Positions 18,786 to 48,154 of a stretch of DNA of 50,575 nucleotides are shown here, piece after piece. How positions within the stretch are numbered: position 1 is the stretch's first letter; every line of letters starts with the position of its first letter. Below the pieces are notes generated by a model, which was not told where the DNA came from, ran no database searches, and saw only the letters and a list, made by a program, of their open reading frames with translations. The DNA is taken from the IMG/VR virus record IMGVR_UViG_3300045988_081930, one strand, 5' to 3'. The position numbers were made by a program, and so were the translations under genes. The stretch is from a virus.

Positions 18786-19109
18786 TTTGTGTGCCTCCTG
18801 TTTTGTGTTTTGGGTAATGGGGACGGGCCGCTTTACAACTGGCCCGGCGTGGCGTTGTGCCGCTGGGGGCTGCCGTGTGGTCTTATGCCAGGCGGCGGTG
18901 CCCATTGCGCAGGGCGGGCGGGGCCTGTTTTTGTGGTGATAAGCTGCCCGTAAACCGTGCCGGGTTCGCCCGGCGGCGGGTACAATCTGTTTTGTGGGGA
19001 GGTGTACCGGCTCCCGTTGGACTTATGCCAGCACCCCGGCGGGCTGGCGGCCATTGTTGGCGATGGGTGCGCGTTGTGAGTTCGTGCCGGGCTTGTGATC
19101 GTGTTTGTT

Positions 19110-19183
19110 ACCCATGAGCGCCCACCCTTTGCAGGGTGGCCGGGCTTGCACCGGCGGCGCGTTATGCGTCGGCCTTGCGGGTC
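19110..19183. repeat. 74-nt structured intergenic repeat, copy A
   Basis: acccatgagcgcccaccctttgcagggtggccgggcttgcaccggcggcgcgttatgcgtcggccttgcgggtc. Confidence 0.9.
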
Positions 19184-19625
19184 AATCAAGGCAAGTTTCG
19201 CGCTTGATTTTGTACTGCGCTTTGATCTTGTCATAGGCGCGGAGCGTGACCATGTAGGTGCCCTGTTCTGCGTCGTAGGTAATGCCGCGCCCGTGGAGCG
19301 GGGGCAGGCCGTCACGCAGGGGGCGCAGAAAGTAGTGCTTGCCATAGTAGGCAAGATCGGCGGCGTAGTCGCAGCCCGTGGGGGCCTGCTGCATTTCGTA
19401 GCAGTAGGAATACTCGCCGGGGGCGGTGGCCTGCACGGCGGGGGTCTTGGCGGCCTCCAATGCGTCATAATCGGGGGCGTAGCCGTAAACCTCGCCGGTG
19501 CTGGGGTCGTAGCGGGAAACGGAAAAATCCGGGATGAAAAGCGCCGTGTTTGCGCCGATCTGCTGGGAGTAGCCACCGGGAACCGGGGCAAAGGTGCCGG
19601 GAATTTTGCGTTCTGTTGCTGCCAT
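19182..19625 (-). CDS. Hypothetical protein
   Basis: Internal ATG (MAATERKIPG) after AGGAGG. Confidence 0.55.
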   Translation of the reverse strand: MAATERKIPGTFAPVPGGYSQQIGANTALFIPDFSVSRYDPSTGEVYGYAPDYDALEAAKTPAVQATAPGEYSYCYEMQQAPTGCDYAADLAYYGKHYFLRPLRDGLPPLHGRGITYDAEQGTYMVTLRAYDKIKAQYKIKRETCLD

Positions 19626-19633
19626 TGTGAAAG

Positions 19634-19748
19634 CCTCCTGTTTTGTGCTGTGTTTTGTGTGGGCGGTTTTGTGTACCCATGAGCGCCCGCCCCATGTGGG
19701 GTGGCCGGGCTTGCACCGGCGGCGCGTTATGCGTCGGCCTTGCGGGTC
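19634..19748. repeat. 115-nt intergenic repeat, copy B (74-nt core plus CACAAAAC leader and RBS)
   Basis: Core 19675-19748. The five substitutions relative to copy A are all inside one hairpin. Confidence 0.9.
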
Positions 19749-19755
19749 GTGTGGG

Positions 19756-19962: not shown

Positions 19963-20077
19963 CCTCCTGTTTTGTGTTGCGTTTTGTGTGGGCGGTTTTG
20001 TGTACCCATGAGCGCCCACCCTTTGCAGGGTGGCCGGGCTTGCACCGGCGGCGCGTTGTGCGTCGGCCTTGCGGGTT
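19963..20077. repeat. 115-nt intergenic repeat, copy C
   Basis: Core 20004-20077; 2 differences from copy A. Confidence 0.9.
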
Positions 20078-20084
20078 GCGTGGG

Positions 20085-43536: not shown

Positions 43537-43857
43537 ATGGCATTTTTTACCGAGGATTTCCTGAATGCGAGGCGGGCTGACCTGCTGCGCAGCGTGCAGC
43601 GGTTCCAGTACCAGATCAACGGCGGCGGCTGGCAGGACGGCGAGATCAACAGCAAGGCCGTGATCGGCAATGCGGTGGTGGTATTTGTGAGCGTGCCGAG
43701 CTCCGGCGCAGCGGACACCATTACCGGCGTGCGGGTGTACGACAACAACGACAAGCTGGCAGGACAGCAGGCCGTGAGCGTGAAACGGACGAGCGTGAAC
43801 GCGGCGCTTTTGCGGTTTGTGTTCCCGCTGACGGAAGCGCAGACGGCAACGAGATGA
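43537..43857 (+). CDS. Small tail-fibre-module protein
   Basis: 106-aa ORF. Confidence 0.5.
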   Translation: MAFFTEDFLNARRADLLRSVQRFQYQINGGGWQDGEINSKAVIGNAVVVFVSVPSSGAADTITGVRVYDNNDKLAGQQAVSVKRTSVNAALLRFVFPLTEAQTATR

Positions 43858-43874
43858 AAGAGAGGTGAACGACT

Positions 43875-44411
43875 ATGTATGAACGCACATTCTGGCTGGA
43901 CCATGTAGAGGACCAGGGCGGAGAGGTGATCCAGGAGGGCACGCCGCTGGACCAGGCACACTTCAACAAAATGGAGGTAGGCATTGAGGACGCGAACCTT
44001 GCGCACAAGATCGTGATGATCTTTGCACGGTGGATCGAGCGCAGGCTTGCCGCCATTGAGGGAACCAGCGGCACCCACACCACCGACATTGCCGGGATCA
44101 AGGCGAAGGACACGACGCAGGACGGACGATTGACGGCGCTGGAAAGCGAGACTGCGGCAGAGGTGAAGGAAGTGACCCTGACCGCCAACAGCAACCCGTG
44201 GCCGTTTTGCAACGATGACAAGAACGTGATCCTGACTACCGTGCGCAAGAACACCAACTACACGGTGGATGTGTATGTCAAGAGCGTGGCAGACGGACGG
44301 CTGGGCGACATTACCGTGAGCGGCAAGGGCACGAACAGCTTTAAGGTACGCCACGACGGCAGCGCCAAGACCGTGGTGCTGACTTTGAAAATTACGGGAG
44401 GTATGAAGTGA
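43875..44411 (+). CDS. Tail fibre protein
   Basis: N-terminal ERTFWLDHVEDQGGEVIQEGTPLDQAHFNKMEVGI, typical of Firmicutes prophage fibres. Confidence 0.55.
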   Translation: MYERTFWLDHVEDQGGEVIQEGTPLDQAHFNKMEVGIEDANLAHKIVMIFARWIERRLAAIEGTSGTHTTDIAGIKAKDTTQDGRLTALESETAAEVKEVTLTANSNPWPFCNDDKNVILTTVRKNTNYTVDVYVKSVADGRLGDITVSGKGTNSFKVRHDGSAKTVVLTLKITGGMK

Positions 44412-44875
44412 TGAAAGTTACCGAACTGAACGAGGGCAAGAAGATCGCCTACGCTGTGAAGAAAACCATGCTGACGCTGGACGGCGGGCGCATTGCGCTG
44501 GACTTGCAGAAGTACCAGAAGGACTACCCTGTTACGCTGGACTTTATGACGGACGGCGAGGGCAACTTGCTGATGAACGCTTTTGACAGCCTGCGCGCCT
44601 ATGTGGCGGAAATCCGCCTGCCTGCCTATGAGACCGAAACCGTGGAGGTTGAGGACGAGGAGACCGCTGCGGCAGACACCACCCCGGCGGATGAGCAGGA
44701 CGCAGCTGCACAGGCCGGCGTGACCGAGGAGGCGCAGGATGCCGAGACCGTTGCGCAGGGCGAGACGCAGAAAAAGACCGTGACCCGCCGCCTGCCGCTG
44801 GACATGAGCAAGGTCGAACTTGACCTGTTTGCCATTGACGGCATTTACATCAACCAGCTGGACGGCGAGTTTTAA
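44408..44875 (+). CDS. Tail-fibre-module protein, acidic
   Basis: 155-aa ORF. Confidence 0.5.
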   Translation: MMKVTELNEGKKIAYAVKKTMLTLDGGRIALDLQKYQKDYPVTLDFMTDGEGNLLMNAFDSLRAYVAEIRLPAYETETVEVEDEETAAADTTPADEQDAAAQAGVTEEAQDAETVAQGETQKKTVTRRLPLDMSKVELDLFAIDGIYINQLDGEF

Positions 44876-44888
44876 GGAGGAATGAGAG

Positions 44889-45983
44889 ATGGCTAACAAC
44901 TTTGATGCAATGCGCATGGCCGTGCGGGCCGTGTTCCCAACCAATGATGTGCTGATGGACGATAAGGACGAGCCGAGCGTTATGGTGTACATCCCGGCGT
45001 TCCGCCTGTGTGATGTGCTTTCGACCAGCGACACGAGCGTACACCCGGCGTTCCGCATGAACGGCAAGGAGATCGCGGGCTTTTACATGGGCAAGTACCA
45101 GACGAAGCACTACAATGGCCGCGCCTACAGCCTGCCCGCGCAGGACCCCGCCAACGGCCAGAACTACGACCAGTTCCGCCAGCAGGCCGCCGCCAAGGGC
45201 GCGGGATGGCATGAGACGACCAACGCCGAGTGGGCCGCTGTGGCGCTGTGGTGCCACAAGAACGGCTGTGAGCCGAAGGGCAACAACAACTACGGCAAGG
45301 ACACCAACGAGAGTGGGTATATTGCTATCCCGGCACCGGGCGTGCAGGATAACAACAAGACCGCCCGCGTGCTGACCGGCACCGGCCCGGTCACTTGGAG
45401 CCACAACGGCCAGATGGACGGCATCTTTGACATGAACGGCAATGTGTGGGAATGGGTACTTGGCCTGCGTCTGGTCAAGGGCGAGTTGCAGATCATTGCG
45501 GACAACAACGCCGCCGACAGCTCTTGCGATTCGAGCGCAACCTCTACCGCATGGAAGGCCATCAAGGCAAGCGACGGCACCCTGATCACCCCGGACGGGA
45601 ACGGAACTACCGAGGGCAGCGTGAAGCTGGACTACATCGGCAGAAAGGGCGTGTGGAGCGCCAACATGACCAACCGCGAGGACAAGGGCGTCGGCTGCGG
45701 ATTCAAGGACGTGAGCGCCGATGCCACCGTGGGCGATGCCGCAAAGCTGCTGCTTATGAGCCTTGCACTGATGCCGGACACCGCGCTGACGGGCACCGGC
45801 ATTGACGCAACCTACGGCGGCAACTACTTCTACTTCAACAACGGCGCGGATGAGCGGTGCCCGCATCGCGGCGGCGGCTGGCACAATGGCGGCTATGCGG
45901 GCGTGTTCGGCTTGAACTTGGGCTACCCGCGCTCGTATGCCAGCTGGAAGCTTGGCGGGCGCTGCGCTTTTGTAAAGCAGTAA
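44889..45983 (+). CDS. DGR target protein (receptor-binding candidate) with a C-terminal lectin/FGE-like variable region
   Basis: The last 117 nt are the VR; ...GGGWHNGGYAGVFGLNLGYPRSYASWKLGGRCAF. Confidence 0.8.
   Translation: MANNFDAMRMAVRAVFPTNDVLMDDKDEPSVMVYIPAFRLCDVLSTSDTSVHPAFRMNGKEIAGFYMGKYQTKHYNGRAYSLPAQDPANGQNYDQFRQQAAAKGAGWHETTNAEWAAVALWCHKNGCEPKGNNNYGKDTNESGYIAIPAPGVQDNNKTARVLTGTGPVTWSHNGQMDGIFDMNGNVWEWVLGLRLVKGELQIIADNNAADSSCDSSATSTAWKAIKASDGTLITPDGNGTTEGSVKLDYIGRKGVWSANMTNREDKGVGCGFKDVSADATVGDAAKLLLMSLALMPDTALTGTGIDATYGGNYFYFNNGADERCPHRGGGWHNGGYAGVFGLNLGYPRSYASWKLGGRCAFVKQ
45854..45970 (+). repeat. DGR variable repeat (VR)
   Basis: Gapless alignment to TR: 15 mismatches, 14 of them at TR adenines. 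Confidence 0.9.
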
Positions 45984-46004
45984 GCTGGACCCTGATGTGC
46001 TGGG

Positions 46005-46024
46005 GTCTGCGCGATAGCGCAGAC
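46005..46024 (+). other. Perfect 8-bp stem with GATA loop downstream of the VR (DGR target-recognition hairpin candidate)
   Basis: GTCTGCGC-gata-GCGCAGAC. Confidence 0.7.
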
Positions 46025-46075
46025 ACAAACCCTGCGCGGCTTTGAGCCGCGCCGAATTTACAGGAGGTGTTGACT

Positions 46076-46483
46076 GTGCCGAGAAATGCCGAGGTGCCGC
46101 CCCAGAGGACGGCTGGCGAAGCACAATATCAACCGTTTTGGCTGCGCGAGAAAACCAAAGAAATGCTGCATTATGGATATAAGCTGACAATGATGTTCCC
46201 ACGGAAAAGCAAAGAGCTTGCCGATGAAATGCGCCGCACCATGATCAGCATGTACAGAATGACGGTTGAGTTAGACAAGAAGTGCTACAAGAAAACGACC
46301 ACACAAACGCTGGACATTGAGCTGGCATGGCTGCGCGAGCTGGTAGTGATGGCAAGTGATAAGGATTTCTACGGTGATAAAATGCAACCGCCCCTTACCA
46401 TGCACCAGCGGGAAGTGTGGGCGAAAATGAACGATGAGATCGGACGGCTGCTGGGCGGCTATTTGAAAACGCTGAAACAGTAG
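46076..46483 (+). CDS. avd: DGR accessory variability determinant (Avd-like)
   Basis: About 135-aa basic helical ORF between VR and TR; GTG 8 nt after AGGAGG (ORF track start 46067). Confidence 0.7.
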   Translation: MPRNAEVPPQRTAGEAQYQPFWLREKTKEMLHYGYKLTMMFPRKSKELADEMRRTMISMYRMTVELDKKCYKKTTTQTLDIELAWLRELVVMASDKDFYGDKMQPPLTMHQREVWAKMNDEIGRLLGGYLKTLKQ

Positions 46484-46522
46484 ACGGACGCTTTTCATAA
46501 ACCGGGAATGCGCTATTTTACG

Positions 46523-46639
46523 GCGGTGCCCGAATCGCGGCGGCAACTGGAACAATGGCGGCAATGCGGGCGTGTTCAACTTGAACTTGAACAACCCGCG
46601 CTCGAATACCAACTGGAATATTGGCGGGCGCTGCGCTTT
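46523..46639 (+). repeat. DGR template repeat (TR), followed by an approximately 180-nt spacer up to the RT
   Basis: 26 adenines, AAC/AAT-rich in the VR reading frame; non-coding context. Confidence 0.9.
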
Positions 46640-46821
46640 ACGATCAAACACACGCAAGGTGGCGGAGGTTTACGCCGGACAAGAGGGCTGCTGCTTACGA
46701 GCGGCAGTCGGTGTGTGAACTTAAAGGAGCGCATTTCCGTTCCGGGCGTTGAACCCGGAAAAAATGTGAATTGCCCGGGAAACAGAAATGCGACACCGGG
46801 CGGAGCGAGAAGTAAAAATTT

Positions 46822-48054
46822 ATGAGTAAAAAGCTCGGAGAGCCGGTAGCGCTGGCACGGGCAGAAGATGGGCACACGGTCATTGGGCCGGGTGCCTTTG
46901 CTGTTATGACGGACTTTGCGTGGCTGGAACGGGCAAACCGCAACGCACGCAAGGGAAAGAGATACCGCGAGGAAGTGCGGTATTTCCATCAGAATCTTGA
47001 CGGCAACATGCTGGACATACAGCGGGATGTGAGGGCCGGCACCTACCGCACGGGCGGCTACCGGCATTTGTGGGTGCAAGTGCCGAAGAAACGGCTTGTG
47101 ATGGCGCTGCCCTACCGTGACCGCATTGTACAGTGGAGCGTGTACCAACTGCTGAACCCGTATTTTGACCGCACATTTATTACAGACAGCTACGCTTGCC
47201 GCGTAGGCAAAGGGAGCCACAAGGCTGTTGGGCGGCTGCAATACTGGCTGCGGCAGATAGACCGAAGCATATACCCGGATTGGTACTACCTGAAGCTGGA
47301 CATAAGCAAATACTTCTACCGCGTGGATCATGCGGTGCTGCTGGAAATACTGGGCAGGCGGATCACGGACCCGGATGTTATGGCCCTGCTGGAACGGGTG
47401 ATCAACAACCCGAACGAGCCGTTTGGACTGCCGCGCGGCAAGAAGCCGGAGGACGTGGCGTTTGAAAGCTGGCTGTACAACGTGGGGATGCCGATAGGCA
47501 ACCTGCTGTCGCAGATGTTCGCAAACATTGTGTTGAACGAGCTTGACCAGTATTGCAAGCACGTCTTGAAGCTGCACTGCTACATCCGCTACATGGACGA
47601 CATACTGGTGCTGGGGCCGGACAAAGAACAGCTGAAGCAGTGCCATGCGGCGATTGCGGCATTTTTGAGCGAGATGCTGCACCTTGACCTGAACGCCAAG
47701 ACCTGCATACGGCCTGTGAGCATGGGCATTGAGTTTGTGGGGCAGCGTGTTTGGGCGACGCACGCGGTACTGCGCAAGAGTACGGTACGCCGGATGAAAC
47801 GCGAGGTGCGCAAGATCAGCGAGGATGTGCGGGACGGCGTTATTAACCGGCAGGAGTATCAACGGCGGGTGGCAAGCATACGCGGCATGATGGACCACAC
47901 GAACAGAGGTGCGCTGCGCTGGCGGCTTAACGAGATAACACGGAACATCGTAGGTGAAGAATATGGACAACTGCCTTATGGCCGAGGCGACAGTGATCGA
48001 AAAGCTGTGCGCGGTGGTGGAGCTGCAAAGCGAGATCATCCGCGTGCAGCATGA
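46822..48054 (+). CDS. DGR reverse transcriptase
   Basis: MPIGNLLSQMFANI and YIRYMDDILVLG motifs; 410 aa. Confidence 0.9.
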   Translation: MSKKLGEPVALARAEDGHTVIGPGAFAVMTDFAWLERANRNARKGKRYREEVRYFHQNLDGNMLDIQRDVRAGTYRTGGYRHLWVQVPKKRLVMALPYRDRIVQWSVYQLLNPYFDRTFITDSYACRVGKGSHKAVGRLQYWLRQIDRSIYPDWYYLKLDISKYFYRVDHAVLLEILGRRITDPDVMALLERVINNPNEPFGLPRGKKPEDVAFESWLYNVGMPIGNLLSQMFANIVLNELDQYCKHVLKLHCYIRYMDDILVLGPDKEQLKQCHAAIAAFLSEMLHLDLNAKTCIRPVSMGIEFVGQRVWATHAVLRKSTVRRMKREVRKISEDVRDGVINRQEYQRRVASIRGMMDHTNRGALRWRLNEITRNIVGEEYGQLPYGRGDSDRKAVRGGGAAKRDHPRAA

Positions 48055-48154
48055 TGTGATCCACCAGCTGGGCGGCTATGATCCTACGGAGGAACAGACC
48101 GCGCAGGCGGACGGCATGAGCCGGGAGCTGTGCGGGGATATTTTTGATTTGTAG
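47954..48154 (+). CDS. Small protein overlapping the RT 3' end (lysis-module accessory?)
   Basis: 66-aa ORF; start uncertain (ATGs at 47954, 47963 and 47981). Confidence 0.35.
   Translation: MKNMDNCLMAEATVIEKLCAVVELQSEIIRVQHDVIHQLGGYDPTEEQTAQADGMSRELCGDIFDL

What the first reader, a model, noticed from the sequence alone, without database searches (positions are those of the whole stretch)
44889..48054. Complete diversity-generating retroelement aimed at the distal tail-fibre-module protein
VR (45854-45970, the last 117 nt of ORF 44889..45983) and TR (46523-46639) align without gaps. I count 15 mismatches, 14 of them at TR adenines, so 14 of the 26 TR adenines are changed to C, G or T. This is the signature of DGR mutagenic retrohoming. 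The order is target/VR, hairpin, avd-like ORF, TR, an approximately 180-nt spacer, then RT, which mirrors Bordetella phage BPP-1 (mtd-avd-TR-brt). The RT carries the DGR-typical IGNLLSQ and YIRYMDD motifs. Both repeats end in the same GC-rich TTGGCGGGCGCTGCGCTTT (IMH-like). A perfect 8-bp stem with a GATA loop (46005-46024) lies 34 nt after the VR, like the BPP-1 target-recognition hairpin. The target follows the baseplate and fibre genes, so it is probably the receptor-binding protein.
Basis: partly seen in the sequence, partly recalled or inferred. Interest (0 to 1): 0.75.

Follow-up and report, generated by a model that had tools for sequence, protein, structure and literature searches.

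The report
Intact phage diversity-generating retroelement (DGR)
This is a complete diversity-generating retroelement in a temperate gut phage that rewrites 14 codons of a lectin-fold protein encoded next to the tail genes; it is real and well supported, but it is an ordinary member of a DGR family already described in Faecalibacterium phages.

Summary
VR 45854-45970 and TR 46523-46639 align without gaps. They differ at 15 positions, 14 of them at TR adenines (P = 3e-10). All 26 TR adenines sit at codon positions 1 or 2.

All parts of a Bordetella phage BPP-1-type DGR are present:
- The target is a C-type-lectin/FGE-fold protein. Its model matches the DGR variable protein TaqVP (5VF4) with TM 0.79.
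- An 8-bp hairpin with a GATA (GRNA-type) loop follows the VR.
- Avd is present.
- The RT's best solved relative is BPP-1 bRT (E 7e-47), and its catalytic residues are intact.
- The 182-nt spacer RNA has covarying helices that reproduce the BPP-1 priming and stop architecture.

Comparative data show the lineage is active:
- In 50 related TR/VR pairs, 672 of 691 mismatches lie at TR adenines.
- Lineage-specific non-adenine changes in a TR are copied into its own VR.
- Near-identical proteins vary strongly only at the 14 codons templated by TR adenines.

The closest cultured relative is Faecalibacterium phage FP_Lagaffe, which has the same gene order and a published DGR. This is therefore a new member of a known kind.

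One detail may be undescribed. Phased CTG repeats (spacing 7-7-8 nt) lie between the VR and the hairpin throughout this clade. The receptor-binding role of the target is inferred, not shown.

The parts
44889..45983 (+). DGR target gene (364 aa): a single-domain C-type-lectin/FGE-fold variable protein with the VR at its C-terminus
   Evidence: phmmer against PDB finds 5vf4 (TaqVP) at E 4.8e-57. The AF2 model has pLDDT 80.8 and pTM 0.87. Foldseek matches 5vf4 with TM 0.79 and E 8e-34, then FGE, TvpA and Mtd. PHROG 2889 scores 3e-119. The protein is 52% identical to the 'BPP-1 major tropism-determinant-like protein' of FP_Lagaffe.
45854..45970 (+). Variable repeat (VR), 117 nt, codons 323-361
   Evidence: It aligns without gaps to the TR, with 14 of 15 mismatches at TR adenines. 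The 14 codons templated by TR adenines are the only strongly variable columns among proteins at least 90% identical.
45952..45970 (+). GC-rich 3' end of the VR (IMH-like), identical to TR 46621-46639
   Evidence: The survey PMC5758913 notes DGRs in which IMH equals IMH*, so that recognition must extend downstream.
45985..46009 (+). Phased CTG triplets at 45985, 45992, 46000 and 46007 (spacing 7-8-7), between the stop codon and the hairpin; the last triplet lies inside the stem
   Evidence: Across 17 non-redundant relatives there are 3.5 CTG per 36 nt, against 0.46 in shuffles (maximum 1.0 in 2000 shuffles). The triplets fall at fixed phases of about -29, -22, -15 and -7 from the hairpin. The repeats are also present in FP_Lagaffe. 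Function unknown.
46005..46024 (+). Target-site hairpin/cruciform: 8-bp GC-rich stem with a GATA (GRNA-type) loop
   Evidence: z-score -3.6 for the 111-nt region. Among 25 distinct relatives all loops are GATA, GGTA, GGGA, GAGA or GACA, and the stems carry compensatory changes. It fits the consensus of Guo 2011.
46034..46052 (+). Second hairpin (GCGCGGCT-TTG-AGCCGCGC) just before the avd ribosome-binding site; role unknown, weakly terminator-like
   Evidence: It is conserved in the close clade, and hairpins followed by a T-run occupy the same place in more distant relatives. The terminator scan did not call it.
46076..46483 (+). avd (accessory variability determinant), 135 aa from GTG 46076; the longest ORF starts at 46067
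   Evidence: Pfam bAvd 1.1e-17, 64.9 bits against a cut-off of 40. PHROG 3206 'Avd protein of DGR' 1e-21. NCBIfam DivGenRetAVD 4e-18, but 65.6 bits is below its cut-off of 80. The match to the BPP-1 Avd structure 4dwl is weak, E 0.86.
46503..46514 (+). Upstream strand of the 12-bp duplex with spacer 46728-46739; analogue of the BPP-1 avd:Sp 'cPRT Stop' duplex
   Evidence: MAFFT plus RNAalifold on 25 relatives gives 21-25 of 25 canonical pairs at every position, with compensatory changes such as UA/CG and GC/AU. The BPP-1 element is described in bioRxiv 10.1101/2023.10.23.563531.
46523..46639 (+). Template repeat (TR), 117 nt, 26 adenines, non-coding
   Evidence: Close relatives differ little in the TR: 2 differences against 15 in the VR for L071, and identical TRs in L004 and L005 whose VRs differ at 13 sites.
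46640..46821 (+). Spacer RNA (182 nt). It contains the primer-side strand 46717-46726, which pairs with TR-end 46636-46645; a candidate priming adenosine at 46725; the stop-duplex strand 46728-46739; a hairpin 46686-46695/46700-46709; a stem-loop 46740-46745/46755-46760 followed by an A-run at 46761-46766; and a 3' stem 46774-46778/46796-46800
   Evidence: Covariation counts are. The order of priming A, 2 nt, 12-nt stop strand, stem-loop and adenosines matches BPP-1 Sp (A56, Sp57-58, Sp59-70, Sp71-78, A80/A81). The priming site is inferred by analogy only.
46822..48054 (+). DGR reverse transcriptase (410 aa)
   Evidence: Pfam RVT_1 1e-20. The best PDB hit is BPP-1 bRT 8ub7 at E 6.6e-47. D160, D259 and D260 align to the catalytic D138, D215 and D216 of bRT, and IGNLLSQ aligns to IGSLTSQ. 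PHROG 1423 scores 1e-121. Homology to relatives ends near residue 372-377.

Best explanation
This is a complete Avd-type diversity-generating retroelement of the BPP-1 kind, carried by a temperate contractile-tailed gut phage related to Faecalibacterium phage FP_Lagaffe.

How it most likely works:
1. A transcript running from the avd-TR gap through the TR and the 182-nt spacer folds around an RT-Avd complex.
2. An upstream segment (46503-46514) pairs with the spacer (46728-46739). The 3' edge of the TR (46636-46645) pairs with spacer 46717-46726.
3. This places a spacer adenosine, probably A46725, to prime cDNA synthesis from about TR C46636.
4. The RT copies the TR and misincorporates at the 26 adenines.
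5. The roughly 120-nt cDNA replaces the VR (45854-45970). Replacement is guided by the shared GC-rich end, the downstream GRNA-loop hairpin (46005-46024) and possibly the phased CTG repeats.

The outcome is that 14 codons of a C-type-lectin-fold protein are rewritten, giving up to about 2e15 protein variants. The protein is probably displayed on the tail and probably serves to adapt receptor binding.

Status of each step:
- Shown: all parts are present and intact. TR-to-VR transfer and adenine-specific mutagenesis have operated repeatedly in this lineage.
- Inferred by analogy with BPP-1: the priming site, the extent of the cDNA and the homing mechanism.
- Inferred from gene position and homology: the receptor-binding role.
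For: Repeat statistics:
- In the window, 14 of 15 mismatches are at TR adenines, P = 2.8e-10, and every adenine is at codon position 1 or 2.
- In 50 distinct TR/VR pairs from relatives sharing this RT, 672 of 691 mismatches are at TR adenines. That is 53% of adenines changed against 0.4% of other bases.

Information flow from TR to VR:
- Lineage-specific non-adenine changes in a TR are mirrored in its own VR. Examples are GGT in L010, TGGAACAAC in L006-L009, and both TR changes in L071.
- Among 11 proteins at least 90% identical, all 14 codons templated by TR adenines vary, with a mean of 5.9 residues per column. The other 350 columns average 1.1.
- The 90%-identity cluster of the target holds 1418 member sequences.

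Proteins:
- RT matches bRT 8ub7 at 6.6e-47 with catalytic residues conserved.
- Avd matches bAvd at 1e-17.
- The target model matches TaqVP with TM 0.79.

Cis elements:
- The hairpin matches the published consensus and covaries.
- Spacer RNA helices covary and reproduce the BPP-1 topology.

Context:
- The window carries integrase, terminase, portal, capsid, sheath, tape measure, and baseplate J and I genes, then the DGR, then endolysin and holin.
- FP_Lagaffe has the same order, and read-level VR variation is published for it (PMC5883640).
Against: - No read-level data were available for this genome. The six assemblies that carry this exact RT have the same VR where read, and may derive from one sample. 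Current activity of this particular copy is therefore not shown.
- Avd scores below the NCBIfam trusted cut-off (65.6 against 80 bits) and only E 0.86 against the BPP-1 Avd structure.
- One VR/TR mismatch (T-to-G at 45950) is not at an adenine.
- No promoter was detected for the avd-TR-RT unit.
- Nothing shows that the target protein is in the virion. It has no recognisable fibre or anchoring domain, and its closest solved relative, TaqVP, is a monomeric bacterial protein of unknown function.
Confidence: 0.93

Rival explanations
1. The cassette is a DGR by descent, but this copy is now silent. It would be a relic whose VR differences date from past activity, so it does nothing in this genome today.
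For: The assemblies that carry the identical RT show an identical VR. No promoter-like site lies upstream of avd or the TR. Published work found no read-level signal for some Faecalibacterium prophage DGRs, including Lagaffe_CP, at the time of sequencing (PMC11792537). One relative, L014, has a split RT ORF.
Against: All ORFs are intact and the catalytic residues are conserved. The TR keeps 26 adenines, all at codon positions 1 or 2. The cis RNA and DNA elements are conserved. Very close relatives with 96-98% identical flanks have different VRs with nearly unchanged TRs. The identical assemblies may simply be the same sample.
Confidence: 0.1
2. The DGR is active, but the diversified protein is not the host-receptor-binding tail protein. 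It might bind another ligand such as mucin or glycans, or act away from the virion.
For: The protein is a single globular CLec domain with no fibre or collar domain. Its nearest solved relative, TaqVP, is a monomeric chromosomal protein of unknown function. Its PHROG family 2889 is 'unknown function'. Other Faecalibacterium phage DGRs target Hoc-like capsid decoration proteins.
Against: The gene sits where tail-fibre genes lie, directly after the baseplate J/I homologues and three small conserved ORFs and before the lysis genes. This synteny is kept in FP_Lagaffe. The fold class is that of Mtd, the BPP-1 receptor-binding protein. The C-terminus also matches a PHROG annotated 'tail protein', and BFVD structural neighbours include tail-collar fibre proteins.
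Confidence: 0.25
3. The RT belongs to another retroelement or defence system (group II intron, retron, DRT or Abi), and the repeat pair is an unrelated duplication.
For: JGI names the protein 'retron-type reverse transcriptase'. NCBIfam gives sub-threshold matches to group II RT, Drt3a, Drt2 and retron RT.
Against: All of those matches are far below their cut-offs: 126 against 300 bits for group II RT, and 51 against 200 for Drt3a. The best solved relative by 30 orders of magnitude is the DGR RT bRT. There is no intron RNA or maturase/endonuclease domain, and Rfam finds no group II intron or retron msr/msd. The adenine-specific repeat pattern and the presence of Avd are specific to DGRs.
Confidence: 0.01

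Closest known systems
Bordetella phage BPP-1 DGR (mtd-avd-TR-brt), the prototype
   Same: The order is the same: target with C-terminal VR, hairpin, avd, TR, spacer, RT. The RT is homologous (E 6.6e-47) and Avd is of the same family. The target has the CLec/FGE fold. Both have a GC-rich repeat end and an 8-bp hairpin with a GRNA loop (GAAA in BPP-1, GATA here). The spacer topology is the same: priming A, 2 nt, 12-nt stop strand, stem-loop, adenosines.
   Different: In BPP-1 the hairpin abuts the stop codon. Here 21 nt carrying phased CTG repeats intervene, and the hairpin starts 34 nt after the end of TR homology. In BPP-1 the upstream strand of the stop duplex lies inside the avd coding sequence and the TR abuts the avd stop. 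Here it lies in a 39-nt avd-TR gap. BPP-1 IMH and IMH* differ within the repeat, whereas here the 19-nt ends are identical. The spacer is 182 nt against about 140-144 nt. Mtd is a multidomain trimer, whereas this target is a single TaqVP-like domain. BPP-1 is a podovirus of a proteobacterium, whereas this is a contractile-tailed phage probably infecting a Firmicute.
Faecalibacterium phage FP_Lagaffe (Lagaffevirus) DGR, described by Cornuault et al. 2018 (PMC5883640) and Gulyaeva et al. 2024 (PMC11792537)
   Same: The block is syntenic and homologous: baseplate J, baseplate I, three small ORFs, Mtd-like target, Avd, RT, then endolysin and holin. The TR/VR pair is 115 nt with 13 mismatches, all at adenines, and phased (A)TCTG repeats precede a hairpin after the VR. 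Both are temperate gut phages.
   Different: Identity is only 52% for the target, 45% for the RT and 39% for Avd, and megablast finds no nucleotide similarity. Lagaffe has a second VR and target paralogue, whereas this window has one. The Lagaffe hairpin has a 7-nt loop, CCACCAA, instead of a GRNA loop.
TaqVP, the Thermus aquaticus DGR variable protein (PDB 5VF4)
   Same: It is the best sequence and structure match over the full length (E 4.8e-57, TM 0.79, 35% identity). The VR is at the extreme C-terminus, with invariant final residues encoded by the IMH-like segment.
   Different: TaqVP is encoded in a bacterial chromosome, has 9 variable residues and has no known function. This protein is phage-encoded in the tail module and has 14 variable codons.

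Membership tests
Diversity-generating retroelement (DGR) | A TR/VR repeat pair whose differences fall almost only at TR adenines | tested here: met
   14 of 15 mismatches are at adenines, P = 2.8e-10. The family-wide count is 672 of 691.
Diversity-generating retroelement (DGR) | An RT of the DGR clade with intact catalytic YxDD and the [I/L]GxxxSQ motif | tested here: met
   The best PDB match is bRT 8ub7 at 6.6e-47, against 2e-17 for the best group II RT. YMDD, IGNLLSQ and D160 align to the bRT active-site residues. No formal phylogeny was made.
Diversity-generating retroelement (DGR) | The VR lies inside a protein-coding target, with TR adenines at codon positions 1 and 2 (AAY codons) | tested here: met
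   12 AAY codons plus ACC and ATT, with no adenine at position 3.
Diversity-generating retroelement (DGR) | One-way TR-to-VR transfer with an invariant TR | tested here: met
   This is comparative evidence only. Non-adenine changes in a TR are copied into its own VR. Against L071 the TR differs at 2 of 117 positions and the VR at 15 of 117. L004 and L005 have identical TRs and VRs that differ at 13 sites.
Diversity-generating retroelement (DGR) | Ongoing mutagenic retrohoming in this genome (read-level VR heterogeneity or an experimental homing assay) | not testable with these tools
   No reads were available. The assemblies carrying the identical RT share one VR.
BPP-1-type (Avd-dependent) DGR cassette | An Avd accessory protein encoded between the target and the TR | tested here: met
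   Pfam bAvd 64.9 bits, above the cut-off of 40. PHROG 'Avd protein of DGR' 1e-21. The NCBIfam equivalog score is below its cut-off, 65.6 against 80.
BPP-1-type (Avd-dependent) DGR cassette | A GC-rich hairpin with a 4-nt GRNA loop within 4-34 bp after the VR (Guo 2011) | tested here: met
   8-bp stem, GATA loop, 34 nt after the VR. It covaries in 25 relatives.
BPP-1-type (Avd-dependent) DGR cassette | An IMH in the VR that differs from IMH* in the TR, giving directionality | tested here: inconclusive
   The 19-nt GC-rich ends are identical and the sequences diverge completely right after them. This situation is known from the survey PMC5758913. The discriminating element was not identified; the CTG repeats and the hairpin are candidates.
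BPP-1-type (Avd-dependent) DGR cassette | [quoted passage not shown] | tested here: met
   The helices are predicted by RNAalifold on 25 relatives, with compensatory changes. The topology matches BPP-1. Function and the priming nucleotide were not tested.
CLec/FGE-fold DGR variable proteins (Mtd, TvpA, TaqVP) | An FGE-type C-type-lectin fold with the VR forming the C-terminal ligand-binding surface | tested here: met
   Foldseek matches 5vf4 with TM 0.79 and E 8e-34, with weaker matches to FGE, 2y3c and 1yu3. The phmmer alignment includes VR residues 320-362 against TaqVP 342-384. Pfam FGE-sulfatase scores only 22.5 bits, just under its cut-off of 23.3. Solvent exposure of the variable residues was not measured.
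Phage tail fibre / receptor-binding protein | Presence in the virion tail and binding to a host receptor | not testable with these tools
   There is only positional and homology evidence.
Group II intron, retron or defence RTs (considered and rejected) | A score above the family cut-off and the associated RNA or effector | tested here: not met
   All NCBIfam matches are far below their cut-offs. Rfam finds no intron or retron RNA in the window.

The most novel reading that the evidence does not exclude
The phased CTG triplets may be a cis element of DGR target recognition that I did not find described in the papers searched. They have spacing 7-7-8 nt and fixed phase, lie between the VR and the GRNA hairpin, and are conserved across the whole Lagaffe-like RT clade while the surrounding sequence diverges. 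In this clade IMH and IMH* are identical, so the repeats could supply the donor/recipient discrimination that BPP-1 encodes in the 21-bp part of its IMH. One possibility is that they are read by a multimeric factor such as the Avd pentamer or a host protein.
Probability: 0.3. Interest if true: 0.5.

Novelty: new member of a known kind. Interest (0 to 1): 0.3.

Why it matters
DGRs are common in gut phages, and this family has a published, cultured representative, so the element itself adds little. Its value is as a very clean, well-populated example: thousands of natural variants of one scaffold.

Two things could be useful:
- The family alignment gives a covariation-supported map of the DGR RNA in a Firmicute phage (stop duplex, primer duplex, candidate priming adenosine). 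This extends the BPP-1 cryo-EM model to a distant clade.
- The phased CTG repeats offer a concrete, testable candidate for how a DGR with identical IMH and IMH* tells target from template. Homing is the least understood step of DGR biology.

Tried and rejected
- Second VR or remote target. An adenine-tolerant scan of both strands with the full TR and with 40-nt pieces found only the VR and the TR. tblastn of the target protein found no paralogue.
- Known phage at the nucleotide level. Megablast of the cassette against 50,697 phage records found nothing.
- Host from genomes. The scan of GTDB species representatives with the RT gave only distant hits at 28-33% identity (Collinsella, Turneriella). 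The host is only inferred as Faecalibacterium or a related Firmicute, from the Lagaffe relationship and a Lachnospiraceae MAG homologue.
- RNA-guided recognition of the CTG region. RNAduplex between the region upstream of the hairpin (both strands) and the spacer or upstream RNA was no better than shuffled controls in 16 lineages.
- My first manual pairing of spacer GGAGCGCA with the TR end TGCGCTTT. I dropped it because covariation supports pairing of that spacer segment with the segment upstream of the TR instead.
- Promoter and terminator scan of the cassette. Nothing exceeded the shuffle expectation.
- Rfam. There is no DGR-related family, and the only hits are the unrelated twister-sister ribozymes.
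- ORF 46508-46825 (105 aa, called as a gene in the JGI record). I rejected it as coding because it spans the TR and the structured spacer RNA.
- Search for a published description of the CTG repeats. I searched the library once for three DGR phrases together and found nothing, and searched one DGR survey for 'CTG' and 'heptad' with no match. Figures were not viewable, so the motif may still be shown somewhere.

Full report
**Observation.** VR 45854-45970 and TR 46523-46639 are a gapless 117-nt direct repeat. There are 15 mismatches. Fourteen are at TR adenines, out of 26 adenines, and one is a T-to-G at 45950. The chance of that bias is 2.8e-10. In the reading frame of ORF 44889-45983, all 26 TR adenines fall at codon positions 1 or 2. 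They form 12 AAY codons plus ACC and ATT, so adenine mutagenesis can give about 2e15 proteins without creating stop codons. Both repeats end in the same 19-nt GC-rich stretch and diverge completely after it. The hairpin at 46005-46024 (8-bp stem, GATA loop) starts 34 nt after the VR and is predicted to be stable. A second hairpin at 46034-46052 precedes the avd ribosome-binding site. There is only one VR and one target in the window.

**Proteins.**
- The RT (46822-48054) matches Pfam RVT_1. Its best solved relative by a wide margin is BPP-1 bRT (8ub7, E 6.6e-47, against 2e-17 for a group II RT). D160, D259 and D260 align to the catalytic aspartates of bRT, and IGNLLSQ aligns to IGSLTSQ. Matches to group II, retron and defence RT models are all far below their cut-offs.
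- Avd (46076-46483) passes the Pfam bAvd threshold and hits the PHROG 'Avd protein of DGR'. It is below the NCBIfam equivalog cut-off.
- The target protein matches TaqVP, the Thermus aquaticus DGR variable protein (5VF4), over its whole length including the VR (E 4.8e-57; identity of 5VF4 confirmed). An AlphaFold2 model (pLDDT 80.8, pTM 0.87) superposes on 5VF4 with TM 0.79. FGE, TvpA and Mtd follow as weaker matches.

**Evidence of activity from relatives.**
- The exact RT occurs on six assemblies. The two that were read (JGI 3300056168 and ENA ERZ28597612, 52-kb contigs) are identical to the window.
- The 90%-identity cluster of the target has 1418 member sequences. Eleven full-length members differ from each other almost only at the 14 codons templated by TR adenines. 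All 14 of those columns vary, with a mean of 5.9 residues, against 1.1 for the other 350 columns.
- Two scans of IMG/VR with the RT returned 62 loci with 43-98% RT identity and the same layout. In 50 distinct TR/VR pairs, 672 of 691 mismatches are at TR adenines. That is 53% of adenines changed against 0.4% of other bases.
- Lineage-specific non-adenine substitutions in a TR reappear in its own VR. This is direct comparative evidence of TR-to-VR copying.
- In the closest independent relative (L071), the VR differs from the window at 15 of 117 positions, the TR at 2 of 117, and the rest of the target gene at 28 of 965. Both TR changes are mirrored in the VR.

**Cis elements.**
- The hairpin after the VR is conserved in position, with its loop 42-52 nt after the end of TR homology. 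Every loop is GRNA (GATA, GGTA, GGGA, GAGA or GACA). The stems carry many compensatory changes, and one subtype has tandem A.G/G.A mismatches. This fits the consensus of Guo et al. 2011: a 7-10 bp GC-rich stem, a 4-nt GRNA loop, and a position 4-34 bp from the VR. In BPP-1 the stem structure and the loop sequence were shown to be needed for homing (PMC3240598).
- For the RNA, I aligned a composite of the region upstream of the TR, the TR ends and the spacer from 25 relatives. RNAalifold predicts four elements, each with compensatory changes:
  - a 12-bp duplex between 46503-46514 and spacer 46728-46739;
  - a duplex between the TR 3' edge 46636-46645 and spacer 46717-46726;
  - a hairpin at 46686-46709;
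  - a stem-loop at 46740-46760 followed by AAAAAA, then a 3' stem at 46774-46800.
- The order matches the BPP-1 ribonucleoprotein solved by cryo-EM, in which Sp A56 primes, Sp59-70 pairs with the avd 3' end as the 'cPRT Stop', and a stem-loop with A80/A81 follows (bioRxiv 10.1101/2023.10.23.563531; BPP-1 sequence).
- By analogy, A46725 is the candidate priming nucleotide and C46636 the first templated base. The cDNA would be about 120 nt. This is inference only.

**Genome context.** The window is a temperate phage with a contractile tail. It carries an integrase at 309-1448 on the minus strand, large terminase, portal, major head protein, sheath, tape measure, and baseplate J and P2-I homologues. 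Three small conserved ORFs of unknown function follow, then the DGR, then a GH25/M23 endolysin and a holin. The closest cultured phage is Faecalibacterium phage FP_Lagaffe. It has the same block in the same order, with identities of 52% for the target, 45% for the RT and 39% for Avd. Its DGR is annotated and published, with read-level VR variability (PMC5883640; PMC11792537). Lagaffe has two VRs and this phage has one. The target family is very large, with more than 2538 clusters and some clusters holding thousands of variants.

**What is not shown.**
- Current activity in this genome is not shown, because no reads were available.
- The homing mechanism is not shown.
- Neither virion location nor receptor binding of the target is shown.
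- The 19-nt IMH-like ends of the VR and the TR are identical. What marks the VR as recipient must therefore lie downstream, a situation noted in the DGR survey PMC5758913.

**A possibly new detail.** Between the stop codon and the hairpin there are CTG triplets in fixed phase. In the window they are at 45985, 45992 and 46000, with a fourth at 46007 inside the stem. In most relatives the pattern reads TAACTG-TACACTG-CGCCCTG-AAACACTG-A. In 17 non-redundant lineages there are 3.5 CTG per 36 nt, against 0.46 in shuffles, and none of 2000 shuffles exceeded 1.0. The triplets fall at about -29, -22, -15 and -7 from the hairpin. Lagaffe has them too, even though its hairpin loop differs. I found no complementarity to the DGR RNA beyond chance. 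I also found no mention of the motif in the papers I searched. The repeats may be the downstream discriminator of the target site, but that is a hypothesis.

**Verdict.** This is a canonical Avd-type DGR that is very probably functional and belongs to a known family of Faecalibacterium-type phage DGRs. It is a new member of a known kind and of modest interest.

Noticed in passing
window 19105-19185, 19670-19750, 19999-20079 (minus strand): There are three full-length twister-sister self-cleaving ribozymes (RF02681, 87-91 bits). They lie within a 127-nt repeat family. Each sits just after the stop codon of a small minus-strand ORF and about 40 nt before the AGGAGG of the next ORF, as if to cut a polycistronic early transcript into single-gene units.
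   Followed up: partly
window 45985-46009; also L004-L065 and L068 (FP_Lagaffe) downstream of each VR: Phased CTG triplets (spacing 7-7-8 nt) lie between the end of the target gene and the GRNA hairpin. They are conserved across the RT clade while the flanking bases diverge, at 3.5 against 0.46 expected per 36 nt. I did not find them described in the DGR papers I searched.
   Followed up: partly
window 46034-46052: A second perfect 8-bp hairpin (GCGCGGCT-TTG-AGCCGCGC) lies between the DGR hairpin and the avd ribosome-binding site. More distant relatives have a hairpin followed by a T-run at this place. It may be a terminator or attenuator separating the target gene from avd-TR-RT.
   Followed up: partly
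window 47954-48154 and RT codons about 373-410: A 66-aa ORF overlaps the last 100 nt of the RT ORF. RT homology to relatives ends near residue 372-377, and the RT tail is low-complexity (GRGDSDRKAVRGGGAAKRDHPRAA). The small ORF has no family match.
   Followed up: no
window 46508-46825 (= L001 3687-4004): The JGI record calls a 105-aa gene across the TR and the spacer. It is probably a false gene call over the non-coding DGR RNA.
   Followed up: partly
window 45950: The single VR/TR mismatch that is not at an adenine (TR T, VR G) turns AAT into AAG (Lys354), a residue adenine mutagenesis cannot produce. The close relative L071 has the TR-like T here. This is therefore a private point mutation or a rare RT error away from an adenine.
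   Followed up: partly
L004 vs L006, and L005 vs L010 (IMG/VR relatives): These pairs have 0-2 differences in the 900 nt of the target gene upstream of the VR, yet 7-8 differences in the TR, which are copied into the VR. This suggests recombination that swaps DGR cassettes or TR alleles between otherwise identical phages.
   Followed up: no
L014 3471-4576: In this relative the RT reading frame is split into two ORFs, yet its TR/VR pair still shows only adenine mismatches (14 of 14). It is either a recently inactivated DGR or an assembly error.
   Followed up: no
L011, L016, L022, L026, L030, L032, L040, L044-L046, L053, L064 hairpins: A subtype of the post-VR hairpin has conserved tandem A.G/G.A mismatches at the third and fourth stem layers below a GC-GATA-GC apex. 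The window's hairpin has a continuous stem.
   Followed up: no
window 43537-44875: Three small ORFs (106, 178 and 155 aa; PHROGs 7177, 9010 and 8734, all of unknown function) always lie between the baseplate P2-I homologue and the DGR target, including in FP_Lagaffe. They are candidates for the adaptor that mounts the variable protein on the baseplate.
   Followed up: partly
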